Shown here piece after piece: positions 2,019 to 16,322 of a DNA stretch of 64,000 nucleotides. This stretch comes from Ostreococcus lucimarinus (taxonomy: Eukaryota): NCBI GenBank assembly GCA_000092065.1, contig CP000583.1; one strand, written 5' to 3'. Every line of letters begins with the position of its first letter. Position 1 is the stretch's first letter. The translations under genes were made by a program, and so were the position numbers. The notes under the pieces are model-generated. The model did no database searches. It was given only the letters and a program-made list of their open reading frames with translations, and had not been told where the DNA came from.

Positions 2019-2297
2019 GCAATCGCGGATTTAGCGCTCGAGATCGAGTTGAGCGGAGGCAAGACGTCGGCGTACTTGGCGATGCGAGAAGCCGCCGATC
2101 GGGCGCGCTTGCGCTACGAGCTTCAACAGGCTTCGTGGTGTTGGGACAAGTACTCCGAAGACTCCATGCGCGCATTGGGTGTGAGTGAAAAGGCGGAGCA
2201 GATGCTGCACCAAGGCGAGCGCATCGACGAAGCTATGGATTTCGAGCGGGAACTCATGATTGAGGACATGAACGACTCGGGCACTCGACGATTCTAA
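2019..2297 (+). CDS. Hypothetical protein, exon 2. It joins exon 1 in frame after a putative 200-nt intron (1819-2018) that has a CATTCAG acceptor and a GACTGAC branch-like motif.
   Basis: The frame is continuous from 2019 (AIADLALEIELSGGKTSAYLAM...) to TAA at 2295-2297. The track ORF 2049..2297 begins at TTG, not ATG. Confidence 0.3.
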   Translation, partial: AIADLALEIELSGGKTSAYLAMREAADRARLRYELQQASWCWDKYSEDSMRALGVSEKAEQMLHQGERIDEAMDFERELMIEDMNDSGTRRF

Positions 2298-2355
2298 ACA
2301 CCGCGATGATTTCATTAAATTCTTTGTTGTACCAGCATCATTTTTCATACAATCT

Positions 2356-5300
2356 TCATTCATTCTCTTTTTCTATGCGCGCATACATTTCGGCGATGTT
2401 TTCCTTACCCCCGACGACCGATTCCTCGTTAAAAGTTTTCCACGACGCGACGCTCGCCGACCCTGCGTGCTCGTTGATCGAGTACACCAATCGCAGAGCG
2501 CTGCGAAGTAAATCGTTGTTACGATCAATTTCTTGCTGCACCGCGTCACTCTTCACGCGCGCGGTGAACGTCTTCACCAGCGGTTCGCAAAATGCGTCCA
2601 AGTTCGCGAGCACAGCGTCCGCCGAGTTGGGCGCGACGCCGGCGCTCAACTTGCGCAGCGCCGCGTGCGCGAGCATCTTGATGTCGTAATGATCACCAAG
2701 CCCGCTCGCGAGGGCTACGACGACGTCACGCGCATTCACTAAACCGCCACACGAGTCCAAAATGGTATTAACGCATTCAAACGCGGATTTTCGGCACTCC
2801 AAGCCATCGTCGACGGTGTGCTTGAAGGCGCCGAGATCGATGACGCGAACGAGCTCCGTCGCGATGGCTGTCTGTTCAAGCAGCTTTGGTAAAACATCGG
2901 AAAGAAGAGGCGTGATGAGCGTGCTCTCGCGATGAATCACAGCAGTGAGCGTTTTTATCACCGAAGTTCGCACGTTTACGTCCTCATCCGATATGGCGCC
3001 CATGAACTCTGGCAATCGCAACTCGCTTCGGATCTTCGTGAGCTCGCCCTTTTCGCTCGCCAACACGGCGAATTTTATCGCAGAGATGAGCGTCGCCTTT
3101 TCGAGGGGCGACGCGCTCACGGCGAATCTTTTGTGTACGTCTTGTATGAGCTTGCTCGGATTTGACGCCGCCAATCTGCCGAGGCACTCGGCGACGACGT
3201 TTCGCACGCCTTCCTCCTCCGAACTCGCGGTGCCGTACAAAATCGTCAACACTTTACTCGCCTCGTCTTCGGTCAAGTTTCCGACGACGATAACCTCGCG
3301 AAGCGCCTGAAGAAGCGAGTACTGATGCTCCATAGAATCGCTCTCGAGCTTTGACACGATGAGCGGGAGATATTTCGCACGATTTCCTACGGCGACTCGC
3401 CCGAGCGTCAACGCGGACGCGCCCTTGACTTCGTCTCCGTAGCTATCGAAAGCGGAAAACAAAATGGTTTCTAATTCTTTATCAGCCGAAAGATCGGTCA
3501 AACGACCGATTTCGCCGATGCAAAGTAGCGTGTACACAGCCTCGATTCCACTGACTCCTTGGAGTTTGGCTAGCAGCGTCGACATGGTTTGCTTTATCGC
3601 CGCCGCGGCGACGCATGCGGCGGCGACGCACTTGGCTAAACTGTGCGCCACGAACTGACTATCGACGGACTGAATGTCTTTCGTGTCGGATAAAGCCTCG
3701 AAGAGAGATTCAAAATTCACCACACCGGCAAGAATGAGATTCTTATAGAGCTCTTGAAGCGATTTCAAAGTCTGTCTCTGCACCAACGGCGACCGCGTGA
3801 GCTTGAGCGCGAGTGGCATCGTCGACTTCGCCGTCTCCTGAGTCGCCTTGGGGAAGACGCTGGCGGCGGCTACGATTGTGGTTAAAAGTCCAACAGAAAG
3901 CGTAGCAAGATGCAAGTCTTCTTCGCTCAAGAGAGTCGACGCTTCGACGACGATGGGGACGACGTCGGGATCTTGTAACGCCGCGCGATGCGATGAAATC
4001 AACGCCGTGAGCGCCGCGAGCGCACTCTCGCGTAAGGATTTATTCGCCTTGCGCAGGAAAGTCGTGAGCTCGCTCGTCATCGCAGCCGCAACGGCAGAGA
4101 GATCCATTGGCCGAGAAGATCCCGCGATCATGGCGAACGCACGCACAGCAGGTAAACGAGTCGTCTCGTTTCGCGAACGTTCGAGGAGCAATCCGAGCGC
4201 TCGCGATTGATCCTGAGTGTTGATGTGATCGTTCAGCGTGGCCAGAATTACCGCCGAAGCGTGAATCGCAGCTTCTTTGACGTCTTGGTCTTCATCACTC
4301 GCGTCGAGCTTGGTGAGAACTGCATCTAGTAATGACTTGATTTGACTTGCGTTTTCGGCGGACACCGCTCCCGTGTCTTCTCGGCGCAACACAGAAACCA
4401 CAGCGGCGCACGCGCGCAACGCCTCGGTGACAAGTTTGTAATACTTGTCGGTACAGGCGGCAAAAATTTGCGGCAATAAATCTCGCACGTATGGCTCTAG
4501 GATCTCCAAGTTATTCGGCTTGCAAACACTGCAAACAAACGCGAGCGCCTCAATTCGAGCCGAACTTCCACACGCCTTGTCGCCGACGCAACGTTGGACG
4601 ATGTTCATCAACGAGCTTCGAATTTCTGCGTCCGAGATGTCGGAAAGTATGCTAGGAAACACCGATGCGAGAGAGCTCAGGAGCGCGAACGCCGCAACCT
4701 GCGTCTTAGGCGACTTTGAAGCCGATTCTCGAATGATGATTCGAATGACATCCGTCGTCGTCTCTCTCAACTTGGCGCTCATCTTGGACTCTGGATCGTG
4801 TTCGCGGAATTTTGCACCCACTCGAACGATGTCGCCGATGACAGAAAACACATCCAGTTGCACGCTCGGCTCACGATCCTTCGTTCGCGCGAGAAGTTTG
4901 CTCATGACGTCGTCGTAGTGCTCCGACAGCGTCGGCTCGGACGCGACGCCGACGAGGGCGCTAAGCATTTTCGCAGCCGCGCGACGAACTTTCCAGCTCT
5001 CGTCGTCGTCATCGTTGTATTCATCGTCGTCGCTATACACATCCTCATCTTCGTCTTCGTAAGTATCCATGTCTTCCGTTTCGTCGTCGTCAAAATTTGG
5101 ATCGTACGAGATGTACTTGAGCGCGCACGCAAAGCGTGCGGCTGTGCCCTCATCGCCTTGCACGTTCGCTGGACACGAAGAAACGACGTTATCGATCGCT
5201 TGAAGCGCACCCTCTATGTTCACGATCACCTCCTCGTCGTACTCGTCCGTGGAAGATTCGCAAACGCGAAGTAATAAAGGCATCACCTCGTTCACGTACT

Positions 5301-11173: not shown

Positions 11174-12538
11174 CTAGTAATGGTCGATCGACATTGCGGA
11201 TGGCGGGGTACTAAGCATGCTAGAACCACCCGGAGAAGCCTGCATCGCGACCGCGCGCTCGCGACGTTGTCCCTTATTGTTCATGTCCTCCATCGCTTCG
11301 AACAGCTCGTTGTGATATTCCACCACGGTGTCGCGCAGTTCTTCGTACGTGCGCATGAGCCCATCCATATCGCGATTGTGCTCGTCCGTCAACTTCTTCA
11401 TCGCAGCCTCGAGCTCGGCGATTTCCTTTTGATTTTCCAACTCCTTTTGGCGCTGGTGACCAGCTCTCGCTGTTCTCGCGGCGAGCTCCTCCTGCGCTGC
11501 TCGCAGCGCAGCCTCCGCGGCGTCTTTCTTGAGCTTACCTTGGGACTCCATGCGAGCCATTTTTTCTTCCATGGCTTGTTTTTGACGTTGTAACTGCTCC
11601 ATCTTCGCGTCCAACTTCCACGTCTCCTCCTCGGCGGTGGAGACTTCTGCTTCGAGCGCCTTGAGTTTCGCCTTTTGTTCTTCGCCTTCTTTTCTGCTCT
11701 GTTCGATCCCTTTCATGACTTCAATCGTCTCGCGCATCTCCCTTTCCATGCTTTGCAAATAGTTGAATTGCTCCTGCAACTGCGCCTCTTCCCGCTGCCT
11801 CTCCGCCGCAAGTTGCTGCTCGGCACCCTCCTGATTCGCCCTGGCCGCTTTCTCGATTTCAAACTGCTCCTTCAGCCGGTTTTCCTCCTCTATCAACGCT
11901 TGAAGCTCGTTTTCAGACGCCAAAGCGCGCGCTTCTATCTCGCTCGCCTCCAAACTCGCGGCTTCGACCTCGAGTTCAAGCTGCGCCACCTCTCGCGCCA
12001 GGGCGTCTGGGTCGTTCTCGTTCACGAACGCCTCCGCCTCCGCAATCTCCGCCTTCAATCGCTCATTCTCCGCTAATGCCTCCAAATACTTTCTTTCTTC
12101 TTCATCCTTCTCCGCCAGCGCCTCTTCGTACTCGATCAATCGCTCTTCGCGAAATTTCGCAAAGTTGATAATCGCGCTCAAATTCCTCCGCGTGCGCCCG
12201 TACTCGGGCTTAAACACATCCTTCAACGAGAAATCCTCGAGCCCCGCCCCGCGCGCTAAATCTTGCATCGCCCTTATGAACGCCAAATTCGGAATCGCCT
12301 CATCATACAGTTCCGGGTAATCCAACTTCGCGTACGCCTCCTCGTCGATCGCCCCCAGCTCCGCCATCGTCGTCCCAAAGAAAATCTCAATCAGCGTCTC
12401 ATACGCCGGTCTCAGTCCATCGTGCGTCGGTTTCAGCAGATCCGTCTCGCTCAGCGGCACGTCCAGTTCGCGCAGGCACGCGAGAATCTCCGTGTTGCTC
12501 AGGATCGGGAACGAATACGTCGTCTGCGCGTGCGCCAT
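11174..12538 (-). CDS. NUF2: Kinetochore protein Nuf2 (NDC80 complex).
   Basis: The N-terminal Nuf2/CH-like domain (YSFPILSNTEILACLRELDVPLSETDLLKPT...IPNLAFIRAMQ) is followed by a long coiled coil. ATG verified at 12538. Confidence 0.65.
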   Translation of the reverse strand: MAHAQTTYSFPILSNTEILACLRELDVPLSETDLLKPTHDGLRPAYETLIEIFFGTTMAELGAIDEEAYAKLDYPELYDEAIPNLAFIRAMQDLARGAGLEDFSLKDVFKPEYGRTRRNLSAIINFAKFREERLIEYEEALAEKDEEERKYLEALAENERLKAEIAEAEAFVNENDPDALAREVAQLELEVEAASLEASEIEARALASENELQALIEEENRLKEQFEIEKAARANQEGAEQQLAAERQREEAQLQEQFNYLQSMEREMRETIEVMKGIEQSRKEGEEQKAKLKALEAEVSTAEEETWKLDAKMEQLQRQKQAMEEKMARMESQGKLKKDAAEAALRAAQEELAARTARAGHQRQKELENQKEIAELEAAMKKLTDEHNRDMDGLMRTYEELRDTVVEYHNELFEAMEDMNNKGQRRERAVAMQASPGGSSMLSTPPSAMSIDHY

Positions 12539-12755
12539 GGCGCTTCGAGTTCAAACGTTCAAACGCGATCGTTCGTTCGTTCGTTCGCGTTTCGCGCGCG
12601 TCGTCGCGTCTCTCTCGCGTCGACGCGGACTCGCGGACTCGACGCTCGAATCGCGCGTCGCGCGTCGCGTCGTCGCGCGTCGCGGTCGCCGCGTCGTCGT
12701 GTGCGGTGCGACGGTTGGCGCGCGGGCGCCATCGGGCGACGCGCGACCGCGCGCG

Positions 12756-13856
12756 ATGTCCGTCGAAGACGCCGACGCGCGCGCCGACGACGATGCGAAC
12801 GTCGCGTCGATGGGCGACGCGAGCGCGGCGGCGACGAGGAAAACGCCGCTGAACGCGGAGCAAAAGCGCGCGCTCGTGGACCAGCTCGAATTTTACTTTG
12901 GCGACGCCAACGTCGTGACGGACGCGCATCTGCGAGGGATGATGGACTCGAACGACGATGGGTGGGTGTCGCTCGCGGAGGTGTGCGCGTTTAATCGCAT
13001 GCGGGCGAAGCTGAAGAAACGTCGGTGGGAGGACGTCGCGGCGAACGCCGTTCGCGAGCTCGGGTCCAGCGTCGTCGAAGTATCCGAAGACGGCTGTAGC
13101 ATAAGAAGATTGGAGCCGGTGCCGGATTTCGACGTGGAGGAGATACAGTCTAGGACGGTGGTTGTGGAGAACGCGCGGGAGTTTACGGTGGCGGCGTTGA
13201 GAGCGGAATTCGAGACGTGCGGGGAGGTGCTAAACGTGCGCGTGCGGCAGCCGGGCGGGAAGAAGTGCGACGTGGAAAAGCCGCGCGGGTTAGATTTAAT
13301 CGTGGCGAATTCGAATTCGAATCGCGCGCACGCGTTGGTTGAGTTTAGTTGCATCGCCGAAGCGCAAGGGGCAGTGACGAGGTTGGACAATCCTACCGAC
13401 TGGCGAAATGGTATGCGCGTGCGCGTGTTGCTCAAGCCGGGCCAGAAGAAAAAAGCGAAAAAAGTTCAGAAGGACCCCCCCGCGGCGCTCGAGGATGGCG
13501 GTGACGGAGAGAAAGCAGATGGTGAGGGCGATGAGGGTGATGGAGAGAAAGCGGAGGGCGAGGCCACAACGAAAAAGTCCAAGAAGAAGAAGAAATCCAA
13601 GCCTGATTATTCCAAATGGGCCTCCGCCGCCGCTTTCCGCGAGAACAAGATGACGATCACCAGCCTCGGCGGCGATGACGAAGCGACGGATGGTAACTCG
13701 GGAGAATCACTCGAGGACGCGCTTCCCAAAAAGTTGGTTTTGACGCCGCGAAGTCCAACCATGCCAGACGGCTCGCCAGGCTTCACACGAAAGCGAACGG
13801 TCACTCCAACGATAGACATCGCCAAAGAAGCCCACGATAATGGCGGCGGTGAATAG
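12756..13856 (+). CDS. La-related protein (La motif plus RRM, Lys-rich C-terminal region).
   Basis: La motif LEFYFGDANVVTDAHLRGMMDSNDDGWVSLAEVCAFNRMRAKLKK, then an RRM-like VVVENAREFTVAALRAEFETCGEVLNVRV. ATG verified at 12756. Divergent from NUF2, with a 218-bp spacer. Confidence 0.65.
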   Translation: MSVEDADARADDDANVASMGDASAAATRKTPLNAEQKRALVDQLEFYFGDANVVTDAHLRGMMDSNDDGWVSLAEVCAFNRMRAKLKKRRWEDVAANAVRELGSSVVEVSEDGCSIRRLEPVPDFDVEEIQSRTVVVENAREFTVAALRAEFETCGEVLNVRVRQPGGKKCDVEKPRGLDLIVANSNSNRAHALVEFSCIAEAQGAVTRLDNPTDWRNGMRVRVLLKPGQKKKAKKVQKDPPAALEDGGDGEKADGEGDEGDGEKAEGEATTKKSKKKKKSKPDYSKWASAAAFRENKMTITSLGGDDEATDGNSGESLEDALPKKLVLTPRSPTMPDGSPGFTRKRTVTPTIDIAKEAHDNGGGE

Positions 13857-13906
13857 ATTCGATGCTATAATATTCGACATAGGTTTACAAGGCGGTAAAT
13901 TAACAC

Positions 13907-14944
13907 TTAGCCGACGTTAGCGTCAGTGAGTGAAGCGCACGTGCACTGACCCGCGCTCGTCAGCATCGGTAGCCCGTTCCAATTCGCTCCTTTCGTCGCA
14001 TCCGTCTTCAAATCTTTTTGAACACCCTCCCATATCTTCTTTTTCGCAACTTTATTGACGCCGTGCGGCTCGATATTCTCCGCGCCATCCCATGTGATGC
14101 GTTCGCCTGGCACGGCGCCTTCCGGAGCGCAGAGCAACTCAACATTTTCGTGCGCTGCATCGGATGCGGCTAAGAGCATACCGTTCGACTTCATCCCAGC
14201 CATATTACGTGGCTTTAAGTTCGCCACGACGATGACGAGTTTGCCTAAAACGTCGTCTTTGCTCATGTATGGCGCTAAACCAGAGCAAATGAGACGCGGT
14301 TCGTCCTCTCCGCACTCGACCATCTCAACGTATAGTTTCTCACTCTCGGGATGATTTTCTACGCTCAACACCTTACCAACCTTAAGTTCCATTCCGAGCA
14401 ACTCCTCATTCGGCGTCACAGCGGACGACGCCGATGCAGTCGTCGTCGTCGACGGTTCGTCGACGCTCGTCGCTCCTGGTCCAAAATCTGTCCCGACGCT
14501 TCCGCCCACCGCCGGTACCTTGATGAATTTCCCGTCCCAGTGCGCGCTCTCTTTCATCATCCTCTCAACGTCTTCAAAATACTCCGGTTCGTCGTCTCGC
14601 ATCCAGTCATCCGCCATGAGCCCCTCCCGTCCCGGCGCCTCGTACTCTTCCGCGTTCGACAAGTCAATCTCTCTCAACTTTCCGAACCATTTCACGATCT
14701 CGTGCACCTTGGGCGTCCAGTCTTCGATTTCCTCGTCCGTGATGTCGATTGCCGCCATCTTCGCCAGCTCGCGCAGGTCTGGGAGCGGCGGGAGCGGCGG
14801 GAGATCGCTCTCTGGGACCCTCTTGACGGACGCGTGAGAACCCTGGAGCGGGGTTGAGTTGGGGTCGAACGCGCGCGCGCGGGACGAACGACGCGTGGCG
14901 CGCGCGCGAAGCGGAGCAAGAAGCAGTTCTGCACGCGCTAACAT
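13907..14944 (-). CDS. Fusion protein: a GatC-like (Glu-tRNA(Gln) amidotransferase C subunit) N-terminal domain joined to a C-terminal EMAPII/Arc1p/Trbp111-type tRNA-binding domain (OB fold).
   Basis: N-terminal LRELAKMAAIDITDEEIEDWTPKVHEIVKWFGKLREIDLSNAE...MRDDEP...APxHWDGKFIKVP follows the GatC pattern. C-terminal ELKVGKVLSVENHPESEKLYVEMVECGEDEPRLICSGLAPYM...LVIVVANLKPRNMAGMKSNGMLLAA is the Myf/EMAPII tRNA-binding domain. The track start is TTG; first ATG near 14944 (MLARAELLL...). Confidence 0.6.
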   Translation of the reverse strand: MLARAELLLAPLRARATRRSSRARAFDPNSTPLQGSHASVKRVPESDLPPLPPLPDLRELAKMAAIDITDEEIEDWTPKVHEIVKWFGKLREIDLSNAEEYEAPGREGLMADDWMRDDEPEYFEDVERMMKESAHWDGKFIKVPAVGGSVGTDFGPGATSVDEPSTTTTASASSAVTPNEELLGMELKVGKVLSVENHPESEKLYVEMVECGEDEPRLICSGLAPYMSKDDVLGKLVIVVANLKPRNMAGMKSNGMLLAASDAAHENVELLCAPEGAVPGERITWDGAENIEPHGVNKVAKKKIWEGVQKDLKTDATKGANWNGLPMLTSAGQCTCASLTDANVG

Positions 14945-15160
14945 CGCAGCTAGTCGACGAAGCGTCAAAGCGAGGCGCGATGTGCGGCGCGTGAGTGTTT
15001 GTTACCTGCAGGTTTAGACGACGGGACGAACGACGCGCGAGTCAACGACATTTCGCGTCGTGCGAGCGACGTGCGAGCGATTAGACCGTGGCGAGCCGAT
15101 GTGTGAGCGTCATAAATCGTTCGAGAGGCGATAGGTATAATCTGAGACGGTGGTGTTATC

Positions 15161-15338
15161 ATGGTGCGAATCACGCTGGAGCTTTTGCGGCGGCGCGCCG
15201 AACACAACGACGGCGCGCTGTTCACGCTCGAGGAAGTGGCGCTGCATCAGCAAGGCATAGAGCGGTTAGAGGTGCTTCAAGAAGCGTGTCCGAAGCTGAA
15301 AATTGTGTTGCTCCACGATAACTTGATCCCAAAGATAG
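15161..15338 (+). CDS. LRRC6: LRRC6/TilB/DNAAF11 (axonemal dynein assembly factor), exon 1.
   Basis: [59 protein letters not shown] closely matches the LRRC6 N-terminus. The exon ends at AG|GTGCGG, and ATG was verified at 15161. Confidence 0.8.
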
Positions 15339-15405
15339 GTGCGGCGTTCTGGCGCTCGCGTGGTGCGCGCTTGTTGACTGACAGCGAGACGCCACGCTCT
15401 CATAG

Positions 15406-16322
15406 AAAACGTGCGCAAACTCAAGGCGATGGAGTACTTGAACCTGGCGATGAATAATGTGACGACCATAGAAAACTTGGAGAAATGCGAGTCGCTGGTC
15501 AAGCTTGATCTCACCATGAATTTCATCACGCTCAAAGGGTTGCTGAAACTGGACCGACTCGCGGTCAACCATAGTTTAAGGCAGCTGTTCTTGATGGGGA
15601 ATCCGTGCGCGGATTTCGAAGGATATCGCTCGTTTGTCATCGGAACGTTGCCGCAGCTCACCCACGTCGATGGCACGGACGTCACACACGTAGAGCGAAT
15701 AATCGCAAGGCAGCACTTGCGGCGCATCACTGAAGATTTGGAGAAGGCCGCTGCCGCCGAGACGGCGACGACGGTCAGCGTGGACGAAATCGCGTCAATA
15801 GAACCCGACGCACGTCCGTGGTGCGCGGCGACTCGCATTCTCGATAATGAAGTCAAAATGACCACATCGTCCTCAATGAAACAGCCGCAAAATCATTTCG
15901 ACGACGCCCGTGATGCATTCGATGTACTTCCAGACGACATCGCCGACGTCAAGCAGAAGAATCAAGGCGATTTCGATTTCAAGCTCACCGATTCTGAGGA
16001 TGAAACTTCGATAGAACTCGAGATTAAAGTCGGTACCATCATCGACACCTCACTCATCCACGTCGATATTCATCCAAAGTTGGTGCGCGTGAAAATCAAA
16101 GGCGAGTTGTTGCAGCTGAAGCTCTCGCACGAAGTGGCCACAGACGCGAGCGTCGCCGAACGCTCAAAAGCGACGGGCAAGCTTCTGATCACAATGCCTA
16201 AACTAAACTGGCATTTGAAACCTAAATCAGTCGTAAGGGGAGACCCAAAAATCCGAGATCATCACGCAAGAGTGACCTACCACCGCGCGGAGAACGACGA
16301 ACCGCCCGATGTGATTTGCTAA
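15406..16322 (+). CDS. LRRC6: LRRC6/TilB/DNAAF11, exon 2 (LRR repeats, LRRcap, CS/p23-like domain).
   Basis: Removing the 67-nt intron 15339-15405 (GTGCGG...TTGACTGAC...CTCATAG) gives ...[47 protein letters not shown]...LFLMGNPC, an uninterrupted LRRC6-type LRR array. The separate track ORF at 15411 starts at GTG and is in a different frame from exon 1. Confidence 0.8.

What the first reader, a model, noticed from the sequence alone, without database searches (positions are those of the whole stretch)
13907..14944. GatC-like domain fused to an EMAPII/Trbp111-type tRNA-binding domain
The N-terminal roughly 110 aa align in pattern with bacterial/organellar GatC (LA.LA.L.ITDEE...F...L..I..F..L...D......P...MR.DEP.....E.......DGKF.VP). 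The C-terminal roughly 160 aa are a textbook OB-fold tRNA-binding domain (Arc1p/EMAPII/MetRS C-terminus). An organellar amidotransferase subunit with its own tRNA-binding appendage would suggest a tRNA-channeling adaptation of the indirect Gln-tRNA(Gln) pathway. A 70-aa Ser/Thr/Gly-rich linker separates the two parts.
Basis: partly seen in the sequence, partly recalled or inferred. Interest (0 to 1): 0.6.

Follow-up and report, generated by a model that had tools for sequence, protein, structure and literature searches.

The report
Algal GatC with tethered tRNA-binding domain
This Ostreococcus gene encodes the small C subunit of the organellar Glu-tRNA(Gln) amidotransferase joined by a floppy linker to an EMAPII-type tRNA-binding domain. 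The fusion is real and conserved across many green algae, it is already in databases under assorted automatic names, and I found no paper that describes or tests it.

Summary
Window 13907-14944 (-) is one uninterrupted 345-codon ORF. It has four parts:
- a roughly 45-aa Arg/Ala/Ser-rich presequence;
- a GatC domain at residues ~56-146 (Pfam 33.6 bits against a cut-off of 23);
- an EMAPII-type OB-fold domain at residues 184-345 (Pfam 96.8 bits; TM 0.90 to the human TyrRS C-domain).

A transcriptome ORF of identical length supports a single mRNA.

The fusion is not an Ostreococcus oddity. The same architecture occurs in O. tauri, Micromonas, Chlamydomonas, Volvox, Dunaliella, Haematococcus, Monoraphidium and Bryopsis. 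The land plants and trebouxiophytes sampled showed only a separate EMAPII protein with an N-terminal extension (the AT3G59980 family). Separate GatC proteins were found in Tetraselmis and in some unnamed algal sequences.

The residues that Trbp111 uses to grip the tRNA 3' end are conserved here. The best explanation is a GatCAB subunit carrying a tethered, non-specific tRNA-capture module that feeds Glu-tRNA(Gln) to GatB. It would be a covalent counterpart of the YtpR-GatB contact reported in Bacillus subtilis.

The domain identities are secure; the mechanism is inferred. Orthologues are already deposited and auto-annotated, but I found no publication on the fusion. Interest is moderate.

The parts
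13907..14944 (-). Complete coding sequence: 345 codons plus a TAA stop at 13907-13909, with no intron
   Evidence: ORF list and sequence. The identical protein is called as a single gene on metagenome contigs L001-L004. The MMETSP transcript ORF P0125 is 345 aa and marked 'complete'.
14810..14944 (-). Residues 1-45: putative organelle-targeting presequence (8 Arg, 8 Ala, 5 Ser, net charge +6; predicted disordered)
   Evidence: Composition. AF2 pLDDT is 41-58 over residues 1-40. The region varies in length and sequence among orthologues. No targeting predictor was available, so the assignment is an inference.
14507..14779 (-). Residues 56-146: GatC domain (two N-terminal helices, an extended loop with the R116-x-D118 motif, and a C-terminal F-I-K-V-P strand)
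   Evidence: Pfam PF02686 33.6 bits. TIGR00135 matches residues 56-146. Profile against PDB GatC chains gives 5e-12. Residues conserved at 90% or more across 61 GatCs, bacterial ones included, are all present: A61, E72, L90, R116, D118, V143, P144. The nine best Foldseek hits of the AF2 model of this segment are all GatC chains.
14396..14506 (-). Residues 147-183: low-complexity Ser/Thr/Gly/Ala linker, predicted disordered
   Evidence: pLDDT is below 50 for residues 146-171. Every fused orthologue has a low-complexity linker of variable length and sequence.
13910..14395 (-). Residues 184-345: EMAPII-type tRNA-binding domain. The OB fold covers residues 187-281 (nt 14102-14386), followed by a C-terminal pseudo-dimer extension.
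   Evidence: Pfam PF01588 96.8 bits. phmmer to 1ntg_A covers residues 185-344 at E 7e-33. AF2 pLDDT is about 97, and Foldseek gives 1ntg_A TM 0.90 and 1euj_A 0.88. Equivalents of the Trbp111 tRNA 3'-end contacts are K203, K244, R246, M248, S253 and M256.

Best explanation
The gene encodes the GatC subunit of the nucleus-encoded, organelle-targeted GatCAB amidotransferase, the enzyme that converts Glu-tRNA(Gln) to Gln-tRNA(Gln) in plastids and mitochondria. Its C-terminus carries an EMAPII-type OB-fold tRNA-binding domain on a flexible tether of about 40 residues.

Proposed mechanism, with the status of each step:
1. Shown by sequence and fold: the N-domain is a GatC and the C-domain is an EMAPII-like tRNA_bind domain, joined by a disordered linker in one polypeptide.
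2. Inferred: after import, the GatC part wraps the GatA/GatB interface as in bacterial GatCAB, leaving the OB fold swinging near GatB.
3. Inferred from conserved contact residues: the OB fold binds the single-stranded 3' CCA end or acceptor arm of tRNAs non-specifically with modest affinity, as Trbp111 and Arc1p do.
4. Inferred: this raises the local tRNA concentration and lowers the Km. It hands Glu-tRNA(Gln) to the GatB active site and may shield the mischarged ester. The domain would act as a cis cofactor, like the EMAPII/Trbp domains appended to MetRS and TyrRS, and as a covalent equivalent of the YtpR-GatB contact in B. subtilis.

In evolutionary terms the module is the orthologue of a stand-alone green-lineage EMAPII protein with an N-terminal extension (the AT3G59980 family). 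The fusion therefore predicts that this plant protein also works with GatCAB.
For: Domain identities.

One polypeptide:
- The ORF is uninterrupted.
- An MMETSP 'complete' transcript ORF has the same length.
- Tara entries marked 'complete' exist for Micromonas-type orthologues.
- The apparent stand-alone GatC hits P0252 and P0253 are frameshifted long-read contigs in which a tRNA_bind ORF follows directly.

Conservation of the architecture over deep divergence (40-78% identity):
- Ostreococcus tauri and Micromonas commoda and pusilla.
- Chlamydomonas, Volvox, Gonium, Pleodorina, Dunaliella, Haematococcus, Monoraphidium and Bryopsis.
- Several unnamed lineages.

Flexible tether: pLDDT below 50 for residues 146-171, and low-complexity linkers of variable length in all orthologues.

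tRNA 3'-end contacts of Trbp111 (K33, K73, R75, I77, S82, M85; PMC11286949) map to K203, K244, R246, M248, S253 and M256. K244, R246, S253 and M256 are invariant in 22 fused and 23 stand-alone sequences.

Organellar context:
- The N-terminus looks like a presequence.
- The closest non-fused relatives of the C-domain are plant and algal proteins of about 250 aa that consist of a Ser/Thr-rich N-terminal extension plus an EMAPII domain.
- A Camelina member carries the exact AT3G59980 peptide whose N-terminus was mapped at residue 76 by N-terminomics.
- Chlamydomonas Cre08.g364650, the fused orthologue, was recovered on plastid ribosomes in the same response cluster as GatA/GAT1.

Precedents:
- In-cell crosslinking plus AlphaFold-Multimer found that the B. 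subtilis tRNA_bind protein YtpR binds GatB. The authors suggested it presents Glu-tRNA(Gln) to GatCAB (PMC10090944; PDB 9a77 appeared as a fold hit).
- The T. maritima transamidosome was crystallised with an engineered GatC-linker-GluRS fusion, so the GatC C-terminus tolerates a tethered tRNA-binding partner (3al0_C).
Against: - No biochemical data exist for any fused protein, and complex formation with GatA and GatB was not tested.
- GatA and GatB were not located. They are absent from the 64-kb window (motif scan), and I had no way to search the rest of the genome.
- A second, canonical GatC in the same genome was not excluded.
- The Mamiellophyceae GatC domain is diverged. It scores 28-37 Pfam bits, against 51-59 for Tetraselmis, Volvox and the P0035 clade, and it falls below the NCBIfam equivalog cut-off.
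- Trbp111 F78 is Ala here.
- If the OB fold sequesters the 3' end, it competes with GatB for the same end. A hand-off step therefore has to be assumed.
- Post-import cleavage in the linker cannot be excluded.
- Targeting was judged from amino-acid composition only.
Confidence: 0.6

Rival explanations
1. Polyprotein precursor. The fusion serves only to co-express and co-import two proteins behind one presequence. After import the linker is cut, and free GatC and a free EMAPII-type tRNA-binding protein act separately, as in land plants.
For: The two halves are separate genes in streptophytes and trebouxiophytes. The linker is disordered and poorly conserved, so it would be accessible to proteases. 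AIMP1 is naturally cleaved to release EMAPII (PMC11286949).
Against: No conserved cleavage motif is visible in the linkers. Chlorophyceae keep a separate EMAPII paralogue alongside the fusion, which makes a mere delivery vehicle redundant. No processing data exist either way.
Confidence: 0.15
2. GatC-derived adaptor rather than the working GatC. A canonical GatC exists elsewhere in the genome. This diverged N-domain merely docks an EMAPII cofactor onto GatAB or another partner, or has lost its function.
For: The GatC score is low in Mamiellophyceae, and the TIGR00135 cut-off is not met. Ostreococcus has an insertion in the loop where other GatCs carry the D-x-x-V-x-P motif.
Against: All positions conserved at 90% or more across 61 GatCs are retained. 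The profile search for GatC relatives turned up no separate Mamiellophyceae GatC, only fragments or frameshifted copies of the fusion. That search is limited by its word seeding. UniRef names the chlorophycean fused orthologues Glutamyl-tRNA(Gln) amidotransferase (names cut off in the listing).
Confidence: 0.12
3. The EMAPII domain serves a function unrelated to transamidation, with GatC as an incidental carrier. Candidates are tRNA import into mitochondria (as in Plasmodium tRip), a general organellar tRNA chaperone, or ribosome association.
For: EMAPII-type folds are used for tRNA trafficking in other systems (PMC11286949). The Chlamydomonas orthologue is recovered with plastid ribosomes.
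Against: Fusion to the same partner in the same order is kept across Mamiellophyceae, Chlorophyceae and Bryopsis. An independent bacterial GatB-YtpR contact exists. GatA shows the same ribosome-association behaviour.
Confidence: 0.1
4. Artefact: two adjacent genes, or an assembly or gene-model chimera, read as one ORF.
For: Some public models are split or truncated: O. lucimarinus XP_001416935.1 (161 aa) and Tetrabaena P0601.
Against: The identical ORF is indexed in 961 blocks of the metagenome/assembly collection (24 contigs read), and the transcript ORF has the same length. There is no stop between the domains in any of more than 40 diverged orthologues. The split cases are frameshifted or truncated versions of the same fusion.
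Confidence: 0.02

Closest known systems
Bacterial and organellar GatC (PF02686; subunit C of GatCAB, e.g. Aquifex 3h0l_C, S. aureus 2df4_C; plant dual-targeted GatCAB)
   Same: The N-domain matches the full-length GatC profile, keeps the residues conserved across GatCs, and its model retrieves only GatC chains.
   Different: Canonical GatC is a free-standing protein of about 95-100 aa. Here it is preceded by a presequence and followed by 200 extra residues. The Mamiellophyceae domain is diverged, with an insertion in the central loop.
Green-lineage stand-alone EMAPII proteins with an N-terminal extension (AT3G59980 family; Marchantia, Closterium, Parachlorella, Volvox VaNZ11_002668)
   Same: These are the best non-fused matches to the C-domain (about 175 bits, 45-56% identity). 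They share the EMAPII-type extension and the same invariant K/R/S/M contact residues.
   Different: They lack any GatC part. Their function is unpublished as far as I could find. Chlorophyceae have both the stand-alone and the fused form.
Bacillus subtilis YtpR-GatB interaction (PMC10090944; PDB 9a77)
   Same: A tRNA_bind OB-fold protein is physically attached to GatCAB, with the proposed role of presenting Glu-tRNA(Gln).
   Different: The association is non-covalent, goes through GatB rather than GatC, and uses a different N-terminal adaptor. Similarity is only at superfamily level: NCBIfam YtpR scores 18.9 bits against a cut-off of 100, and Foldseek TM is 0.38.
EMAPII/Trbp domains appended to aminoacyl-tRNA synthetases and cofactors (plant and bacterial MetRS C-terminus, human TyrRS C-domain, Arc1p, AIMP1)
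   Same: The fold is the same (TM 0.84-0.93). They share the logic of a non-specific cis or trans tRNA-binding cofactor that lowers the Km for tRNA.
   Different: The carrier here is an amidotransferase subunit, not a synthetase. No GST-like or Arc1p_N domain is present, so the automatic names 'AIMP1' and 'MetRS beta chain' are wrong.
Yeast mitochondrial GatF (the fungal GatC orthologue carrying an extra extension; PMC4027206)
   Same: It is another lineage-specific elaboration of the C subunit of an organellar amidotransferase.
   Different: GatF has no tRNA_bind domain. Foldseek places it far below the GatC chains (4n0h_F, E 5.2).
Engineered GatC-linker-GluRS fusion in the T. maritima glutamine transamidosome crystal (PDB 3AL0)
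   Same: The GatC C-terminus is joined through a linker to a module that binds the same tRNA.
   Different: It is artificial, and the partner is the non-discriminating GluRS, not a generic OB fold.

Membership tests
GatC (Pfam PF02686) | Score at or above the Pfam gathering threshold over the whole model | tested here: met
   33.6 bits against a cut-off of 23, profile positions 1-66/66, residues 68-143.
GatC (NCBIfam TIGR00135 equivalog) | Score at or above the curated equivalog cut-off | tested here: not met
   38.7 bits against 47.1. The model is built for bacterial and archaeal annotation. The eukaryotic, diverged domain falls short.
GatC | Residues conserved across the family (helix-1 Ala, helix-2 Glu/Leu, the R-x-D motif, the C-terminal V-P strand) | tested here: met
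   A61, E72, L90, R116, D118, V143 and P144 are the columns conserved at 90% or more in a 61-sequence alignment that includes bacterial GatCs.
GatC | GatC fold | tested here: inconclusive
   The AF2 model of residues 46-150 has pLDDT 81. Its nine best Foldseek PDB hits are all GatC chains, but TM is only 0.37-0.45. That is expected for an extended subunit that folds on its partners.
GatC | Forms a heterotrimer with GatA and GatB; GatA and GatB encoded in the same genome | not tested
   No amidase or GatB motif is present in the 64-kb window, and the rest of the genome was not available. In Chlamydomonas the fused orthologue and GatA respond alike in plastid-ribosome pull-downs.
tRNA_bind / EMAPII-like OB fold (Pfam PF01588) | Profile score above threshold, plus the EMAPII-type C-terminal extension | tested here: met
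   96.8 bits against 27. Residues 185-344 align with 1ntg_A positions 10-169. Foldseek TM is 0.90.
tRNA_bind / EMAPII-like OB fold | Residues that contact the tRNA 3' CA end in Trbp111 (K33, K73, R75, I77, F78, S82, M85) | tested here: met
   The equivalents K203, K244, R246, M248, S253 and M256 are present. F78 is Ala249. K244, R246, S253 and M256 are invariant in 45 green-lineage sequences. It is consistent with the PDB alignment ranges and with the residue numbers in PMC11286949.
tRNA_bind / EMAPII-like OB fold | Binds tRNA | not testable with these tools
   Needs EMSA or fluorescence polarisation with the recombinant domain.
Arc1p / AIMP1 multisynthetase scaffold (a name given by JGI annotation) | GST-like or Arc1p_N N-terminal domain that docks synthetases | tested here: not met
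   No such Pfam hit in this protein. True Arc1p_N-containing relatives (P0476, P0479, P0544) are distinct.
Methionyl-tRNA synthetase (the label used for Cre08.g364650 and by some JGI annotations) | Class I catalytic domain | tested here: not met
   Only the C-terminal roughly 110 positions of the MetRS models match (NF001100 positions 565-675 of 676; 93 bits against a cut-off of 587).
YtpR family (NCBIfam NF045760) | Score at or above the equivalog cut-off | tested here: not met
   18.9 bits against 100. The relationship is functional analogy and a shared superfamily only.

The most novel reading that the evidence does not exclude
The chlorophyte fusion is a Rosetta-stone record of a general, so far unrecognised fourth component of the transamidation machinery. 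On this reading, a Trbp/EMAPII-type OB-fold module works with GatCAB in bacteria (YtpR), in chlorophyte organelles (fused to GatC), and in land-plant plastids and mitochondria (the free AT3G59980-type protein). It captures the 3' end of mischarged Glu-tRNA(Gln) and channels it from the non-discriminating GluRS to GatB, keeping it away from the ribosome.
Probability: 0.35. Interest if true: 0.65.

Novelty: new variant of a known kind. Interest (0 to 1): 0.45.

Why it matters
Mischarged Glu-tRNA(Gln) must be kept away from translation until it is amidated. How that is achieved outside the few bacterial 'transamidosomes' studied so far is an open detail of the indirect pathway.

A natural fusion of GatC to a generic tRNA 3'-end-binding module, conserved across green algae, gives three things:
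- A testable prediction about how plastid and mitochondrial GatCAB recruits its substrate.
- A candidate function for an uncharacterised, conserved plant protein family (AT3G59980-type).
- Independent evolutionary support for the YtpR-GatB link proposed in B. subtilis.

There is also a practical point. Public annotations of this protein are inconsistent: GatC, AIMP1, MetRS beta chain, 'methionyl tRNA synthase', and truncated models.

Tried and rejected
1. Stand-alone GatC in Mamiellophyceae. The high-scoring short hits P0249-P0256 looked like separate GatCs. P0252 and P0253 turned out to be frameshifted long-read contigs with a tRNA_bind ORF directly downstream. The others are fragments on short contigs.

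2. Single or multiple origin of the fusion. NJ trees of the EMAPII domain gave 70/100 support for Mamiellophyceae plus P0030/35 in one set. A broader set gave 0/100 for all fused sequences as one clade, and the chlorophycean groups were themselves weakly supported. This is unresolved, and I draw no conclusion from it.

3. GatA and GatB in the window. A six-frame motif scan found nothing credible. I had no GatB query that would pull Ostreococcus out of thousands of bacterial hits, so the idea that the OB fold compensates for a lost GatB YqeY tail could not be tested.

4. An intron in the linker. Many in-frame GT..AG pairs exist by chance, but the transcript ORF is collinear with the genome (P0125), so this was rejected.

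5. Literature. Ten full-text searches found no description of a GatC-tRNA_bind fusion. 'GATC' hits are mostly the DNA motif. The review 'OB or not OB' is not in the library.

6. The full-length AF2 model gives no usable information on inter-domain contacts (pTM 0.56; PAE was not available).

7. The organism behind the distinct fused clade P0030/P0035 (contig L007) could not be named.
Full report
**What is in the sequence**

The minus strand of the window carries one uninterrupted ORF at 13907-14968. The first ATG is at 14944, giving 345 codons, and the stop is TAA at 13907-13909. The neighbouring genes are eukaryotic: La, Nuf2, polyprenyl synthase, Mo25, and an LRR/CS gene resembling DNAAF11. 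G+C is about 0.6.

The exact protein is indexed in 961 blocks of the metagenome and assembly collection. It is 99% identical to an MMETSP transcript ORF of the same length marked 'complete' (P0125). It is 70% identical to the cluster that holds O. tauri XP_003078155.2, and 76% identical to the cluster that contains the O. lucimarinus protein. The window therefore comes from an Ostreococcus species other than those two.

**Domain test**

Pfam finds GatC (PF02686) at 33.6 bits against a gathering cut-off of 23, at residues 68-143, covering the whole profile. It finds tRNA_bind (PF01588) at 96.8 bits, at residues 187-281.

NCBIfam's bacterial/archaeal GatC equivalog TIGR00135 matches residues 56-146 but scores 38.7 bits, below its cut-off of 47.1.

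Further tests support GatC:
- A profile of the N-domain from 13 fused orthologues hits, below E 1e-4, only GatC chains in the PDB (3h0l_C 5e-12, 2df4_C 2e-6, 4wj3_C, 3al0_C).
- In a 61-sequence alignment that includes bacterial GatCs, every column conserved at 90% or more is kept here: A61, E72, L90, R116-x-D118, V143-P144.
- An AF2 model of residues 46-150 (pLDDT 81) retrieves GatC chains as its nine best PDB matches. TM is low (0.37-0.45), as expected for an extended subunit that folds on its partners.

The C-terminal 160 residues align end to end with EMAPII-type domains: human TyrRS C-domain 1ntg at 7e-33 and AIMP1/EMAPII at 1e-28. They are modelled at pLDDT of about 97, with TM 0.90 to 1ntg.

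**Anatomy, with corrections to the finding**

- Residues 1-45 are Arg/Ala/Ser-rich, carry a net charge of +6, and are predicted disordered. They look like an organellar presequence. This rests on composition only, because no targeting predictor was available.
- GatC is at residues ~56-146, not the first 110 residues.
- The linker is about 40 residues (147-186), not 70. It is low-complexity, with pLDDT below 50.

**One gene or two**

The ORF has no stop between the domains, and the transcript ORF is collinear with the genome.

The same order, presequence-GatC-linker-EMAPII, is found in every relative examined. Short 'GatC-only' proteins that scored highly were fragments. In the two I looked up (P0252, P0253), they were frameshifted long-read contigs in which a tRNA_bind ORF follows immediately. 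Synteny with La, Nuf2 and polyprenyl synthase is preserved there.

**Distribution**

An exhaustive HMMER scan, followed by name look-ups, shows the fusion well beyond Ostreococcus:
- Micromonas commoda (XP_002501308.1) and M. pusilla (XP_003062387.1).
- Chlamydomonas reinhardtii (CHLRE_08g364650v5, 344 aa), Volvox africanus and V. reticuliferus, Pleodorina, Astrephomene, Gonium, Edaphochlamys, Dunaliella, C. eustigma, Haematococcus and Monoraphidium.
- The ulvophyte Bryopsis.
- Several unnamed lineages (P0035, P0412, P0417, P0422).

MMETSP transcript ORFs also exist for chlorophycean members (P0578, P0590).

The non-fused state looks like this:
- Tetraselmis (P0257) and some unnamed algae (P0260-P0264) have stand-alone GatC with a presequence.
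- Land plants, Closterium, Mesostigma and trebouxiophytes show only a stand-alone protein of about 250 aa, made of a Ser/Thr-rich N-terminal extension plus an EMAPII domain.
- Chlorophyceae have that stand-alone protein as well as the fusion.

The stand-alone proteins are the closest non-fused relatives of the C-domain: about 175 bits, against 117 for human TyrRS-C. A Camelina member contains the exact AT3G59980 peptide whose N-terminus was mapped at residue 76 by N-terminomics, which fits removal of a transit peptide.

Whether the fusion arose once or several times is unresolved, because the NJ bootstraps are uninformative.

**How it most likely works**

The 2024 Trbp111-tRNA structure shows that this OB fold grips the terminal C75-A76 of tRNA through K33, K73, R75, I77, F78, S82 and M85. 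R75A nearly abolishes binding. The authors argue that appended copies raise the local tRNA concentration, lower the Km, and may tolerate or protect an aminoacyl group (PMC11286949).

Here the equivalents are K203, K244, R246, M248, A249, S253 and M256. K244, R246, S253 and M256 are invariant in 22 fused and 23 stand-alone green-lineage sequences.

I therefore propose that GatC anchors the protein on GatA/GatB, and that the tethered OB fold captures tRNA acceptor ends and passes Glu-tRNA(Gln) to GatB.

Two precedents make this reasonable:
- In B. subtilis, in-cell crosslinking plus AlphaFold-Multimer found that the tRNA_bind protein YtpR binds GatB. The authors speculated that it presents Glu-tRNA(Gln) to GatCAB (PMC10090944). 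The deposited model 9a77 appeared among my fold hits.
- The T. maritima glutamine transamidosome was crystallised using an engineered GatC-linker-GluRS fusion (3al0_C). The GatC C-terminus therefore tolerates a tethered tRNA-binding partner.

In Chlamydomonas the fused orthologue Cre08.g364650, mislabelled 'methionyl tRNA synthase', was recovered on affinity-purified plastid ribosomes. It fell in the same heat-response cluster as GatA/GAT1 (PMC8894945). This shows that the protein is made and is plastid-associated.

What is shown: the domain identities, the single ORF, conservation of the architecture, and conservation of the contact residues. What is inferred: the targeting, assembly with GatA/GatB, tRNA binding, and any kinetic or channelling benefit.

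**Rivals**

- Post-import cleavage in the linker, making the gene a polyprotein. This is not excluded. No conserved cleavage site is visible, and Chlorophyceae also keep a free EMAPII paralogue.
- A GatC-derived adaptor alongside a separate canonical GatC. The Mamiellophyceae domain is diverged, but all family-wide residues are retained, and no second GatC surfaced in a seed-limited search.
- A function unrelated to amidation, such as tRNA import or chaperoning.
- A gene-model artefact, which is effectively refuted.

**Novelty and score**

Orthologues are already in public databases. Some are auto-named GatC, for example O. tauri 'Asp/Glu-tRNA amidotransferase C subunit' and UniRef entries named 'Glutamyl-tRNA(Gln) amidotransferase' (the names are cut off in the listing). 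Others are named AIMP1, MetRS beta chain or hypothetical. At least two models are truncated.

Ten full-text searches found no paper that notes or studies the fusion. The library does not cover all journals.

I rate it a new, uncharacterised variant of a known kind: an appended Trbp/EMAPII cofactor, here on an amidotransferase subunit rather than a synthetase. A specialist would find it neat rather than startling. Its value lies in the testable link it draws between GatCAB, the plant AT3G59980 family and bacterial YtpR. Interest: 0.45.

Noticed in passing
window 15161-15457 (+) and 15411-16322 (+): Two overlapping ORFs in different frames together look like one LRR + CS_DNAAF11_C gene, resembling a dynein-arm assembly factor. 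The same split appears in the metagenome gene calls, which suggests a short intron. Such a gene is unexpected in a genus known as non-flagellate.
   Followed up: no
P0135 (O. lucimarinus XP_001416935.1) and P0601 (Tetrabaena socialis): These public gene models of the orthologue are truncated. The O. lucimarinus model is 161 aa with tRNA_bind only. The Tetrabaena 'GatC, chloroplastic/mitochondrial' model breaks off inside the EMAPII domain.
   Followed up: partly
P0574 = Chlamydomonas Cre08.g364650; JGI names: Annotation is inconsistent. The same fused protein is called 'Methionyl tRNA synthase' (PMC8894945 Table 1), 'AIMP1', 'methionine--tRNA ligase beta chain', 'GatC' or 'hypothetical protein'.
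   Followed up: yes
window 14393-14395 (codon for Met184): A Met at the first hydrophobic position of the EMAPII domain (motif LLGM-E/S-L) is kept in nearly all Mamiellophyceae-type fusions I aligned (Phe in P0417). Other lineages have Leu. It may simply be a core residue, or it could serve as an internal start that yields a free EMAPII domain.
   Followed up: no
P0010-P0027, P0202 (alignment A1 columns ~150-200): Mamiellophyceae other than Ostreococcus carry a conserved extra motif, 'ERLAxALxEDTxLPxNPNPLxxPPLPDL', in front of the GatC domain. Micromonas adds a further ~100 residues or more in front of it. The function is unknown.
   Followed up: no
L005 and L006 compared with window 11174-14944: The gene order GatC-EMAPII / La / Nuf2 / polyprenyl synthase is conserved between the window and Micromonas-like contigs. 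In those contigs a class I tRNA-synthetase (tRNA-synt_1) gene lies just upstream.
   Followed up: partly
L007 (contig NODE_375423, gene 2129-3106): A distinct fused clade (P0030/P0035) is 40% identical to the window protein and has a much more canonical GatC domain (58.7 bits). It sits on a compact eukaryotic contig from an organism I could not name.
   Followed up: partly
alignment, position K203: The Trbp111 K33 equivalent is Lys in 12 of the 22 fused proteins I aligned, the window protein among them. It is Ser in most stand-alone proteins and in the other fused ones. This is a lineage-specific difference in a tRNA-contact position.
   Followed up: no
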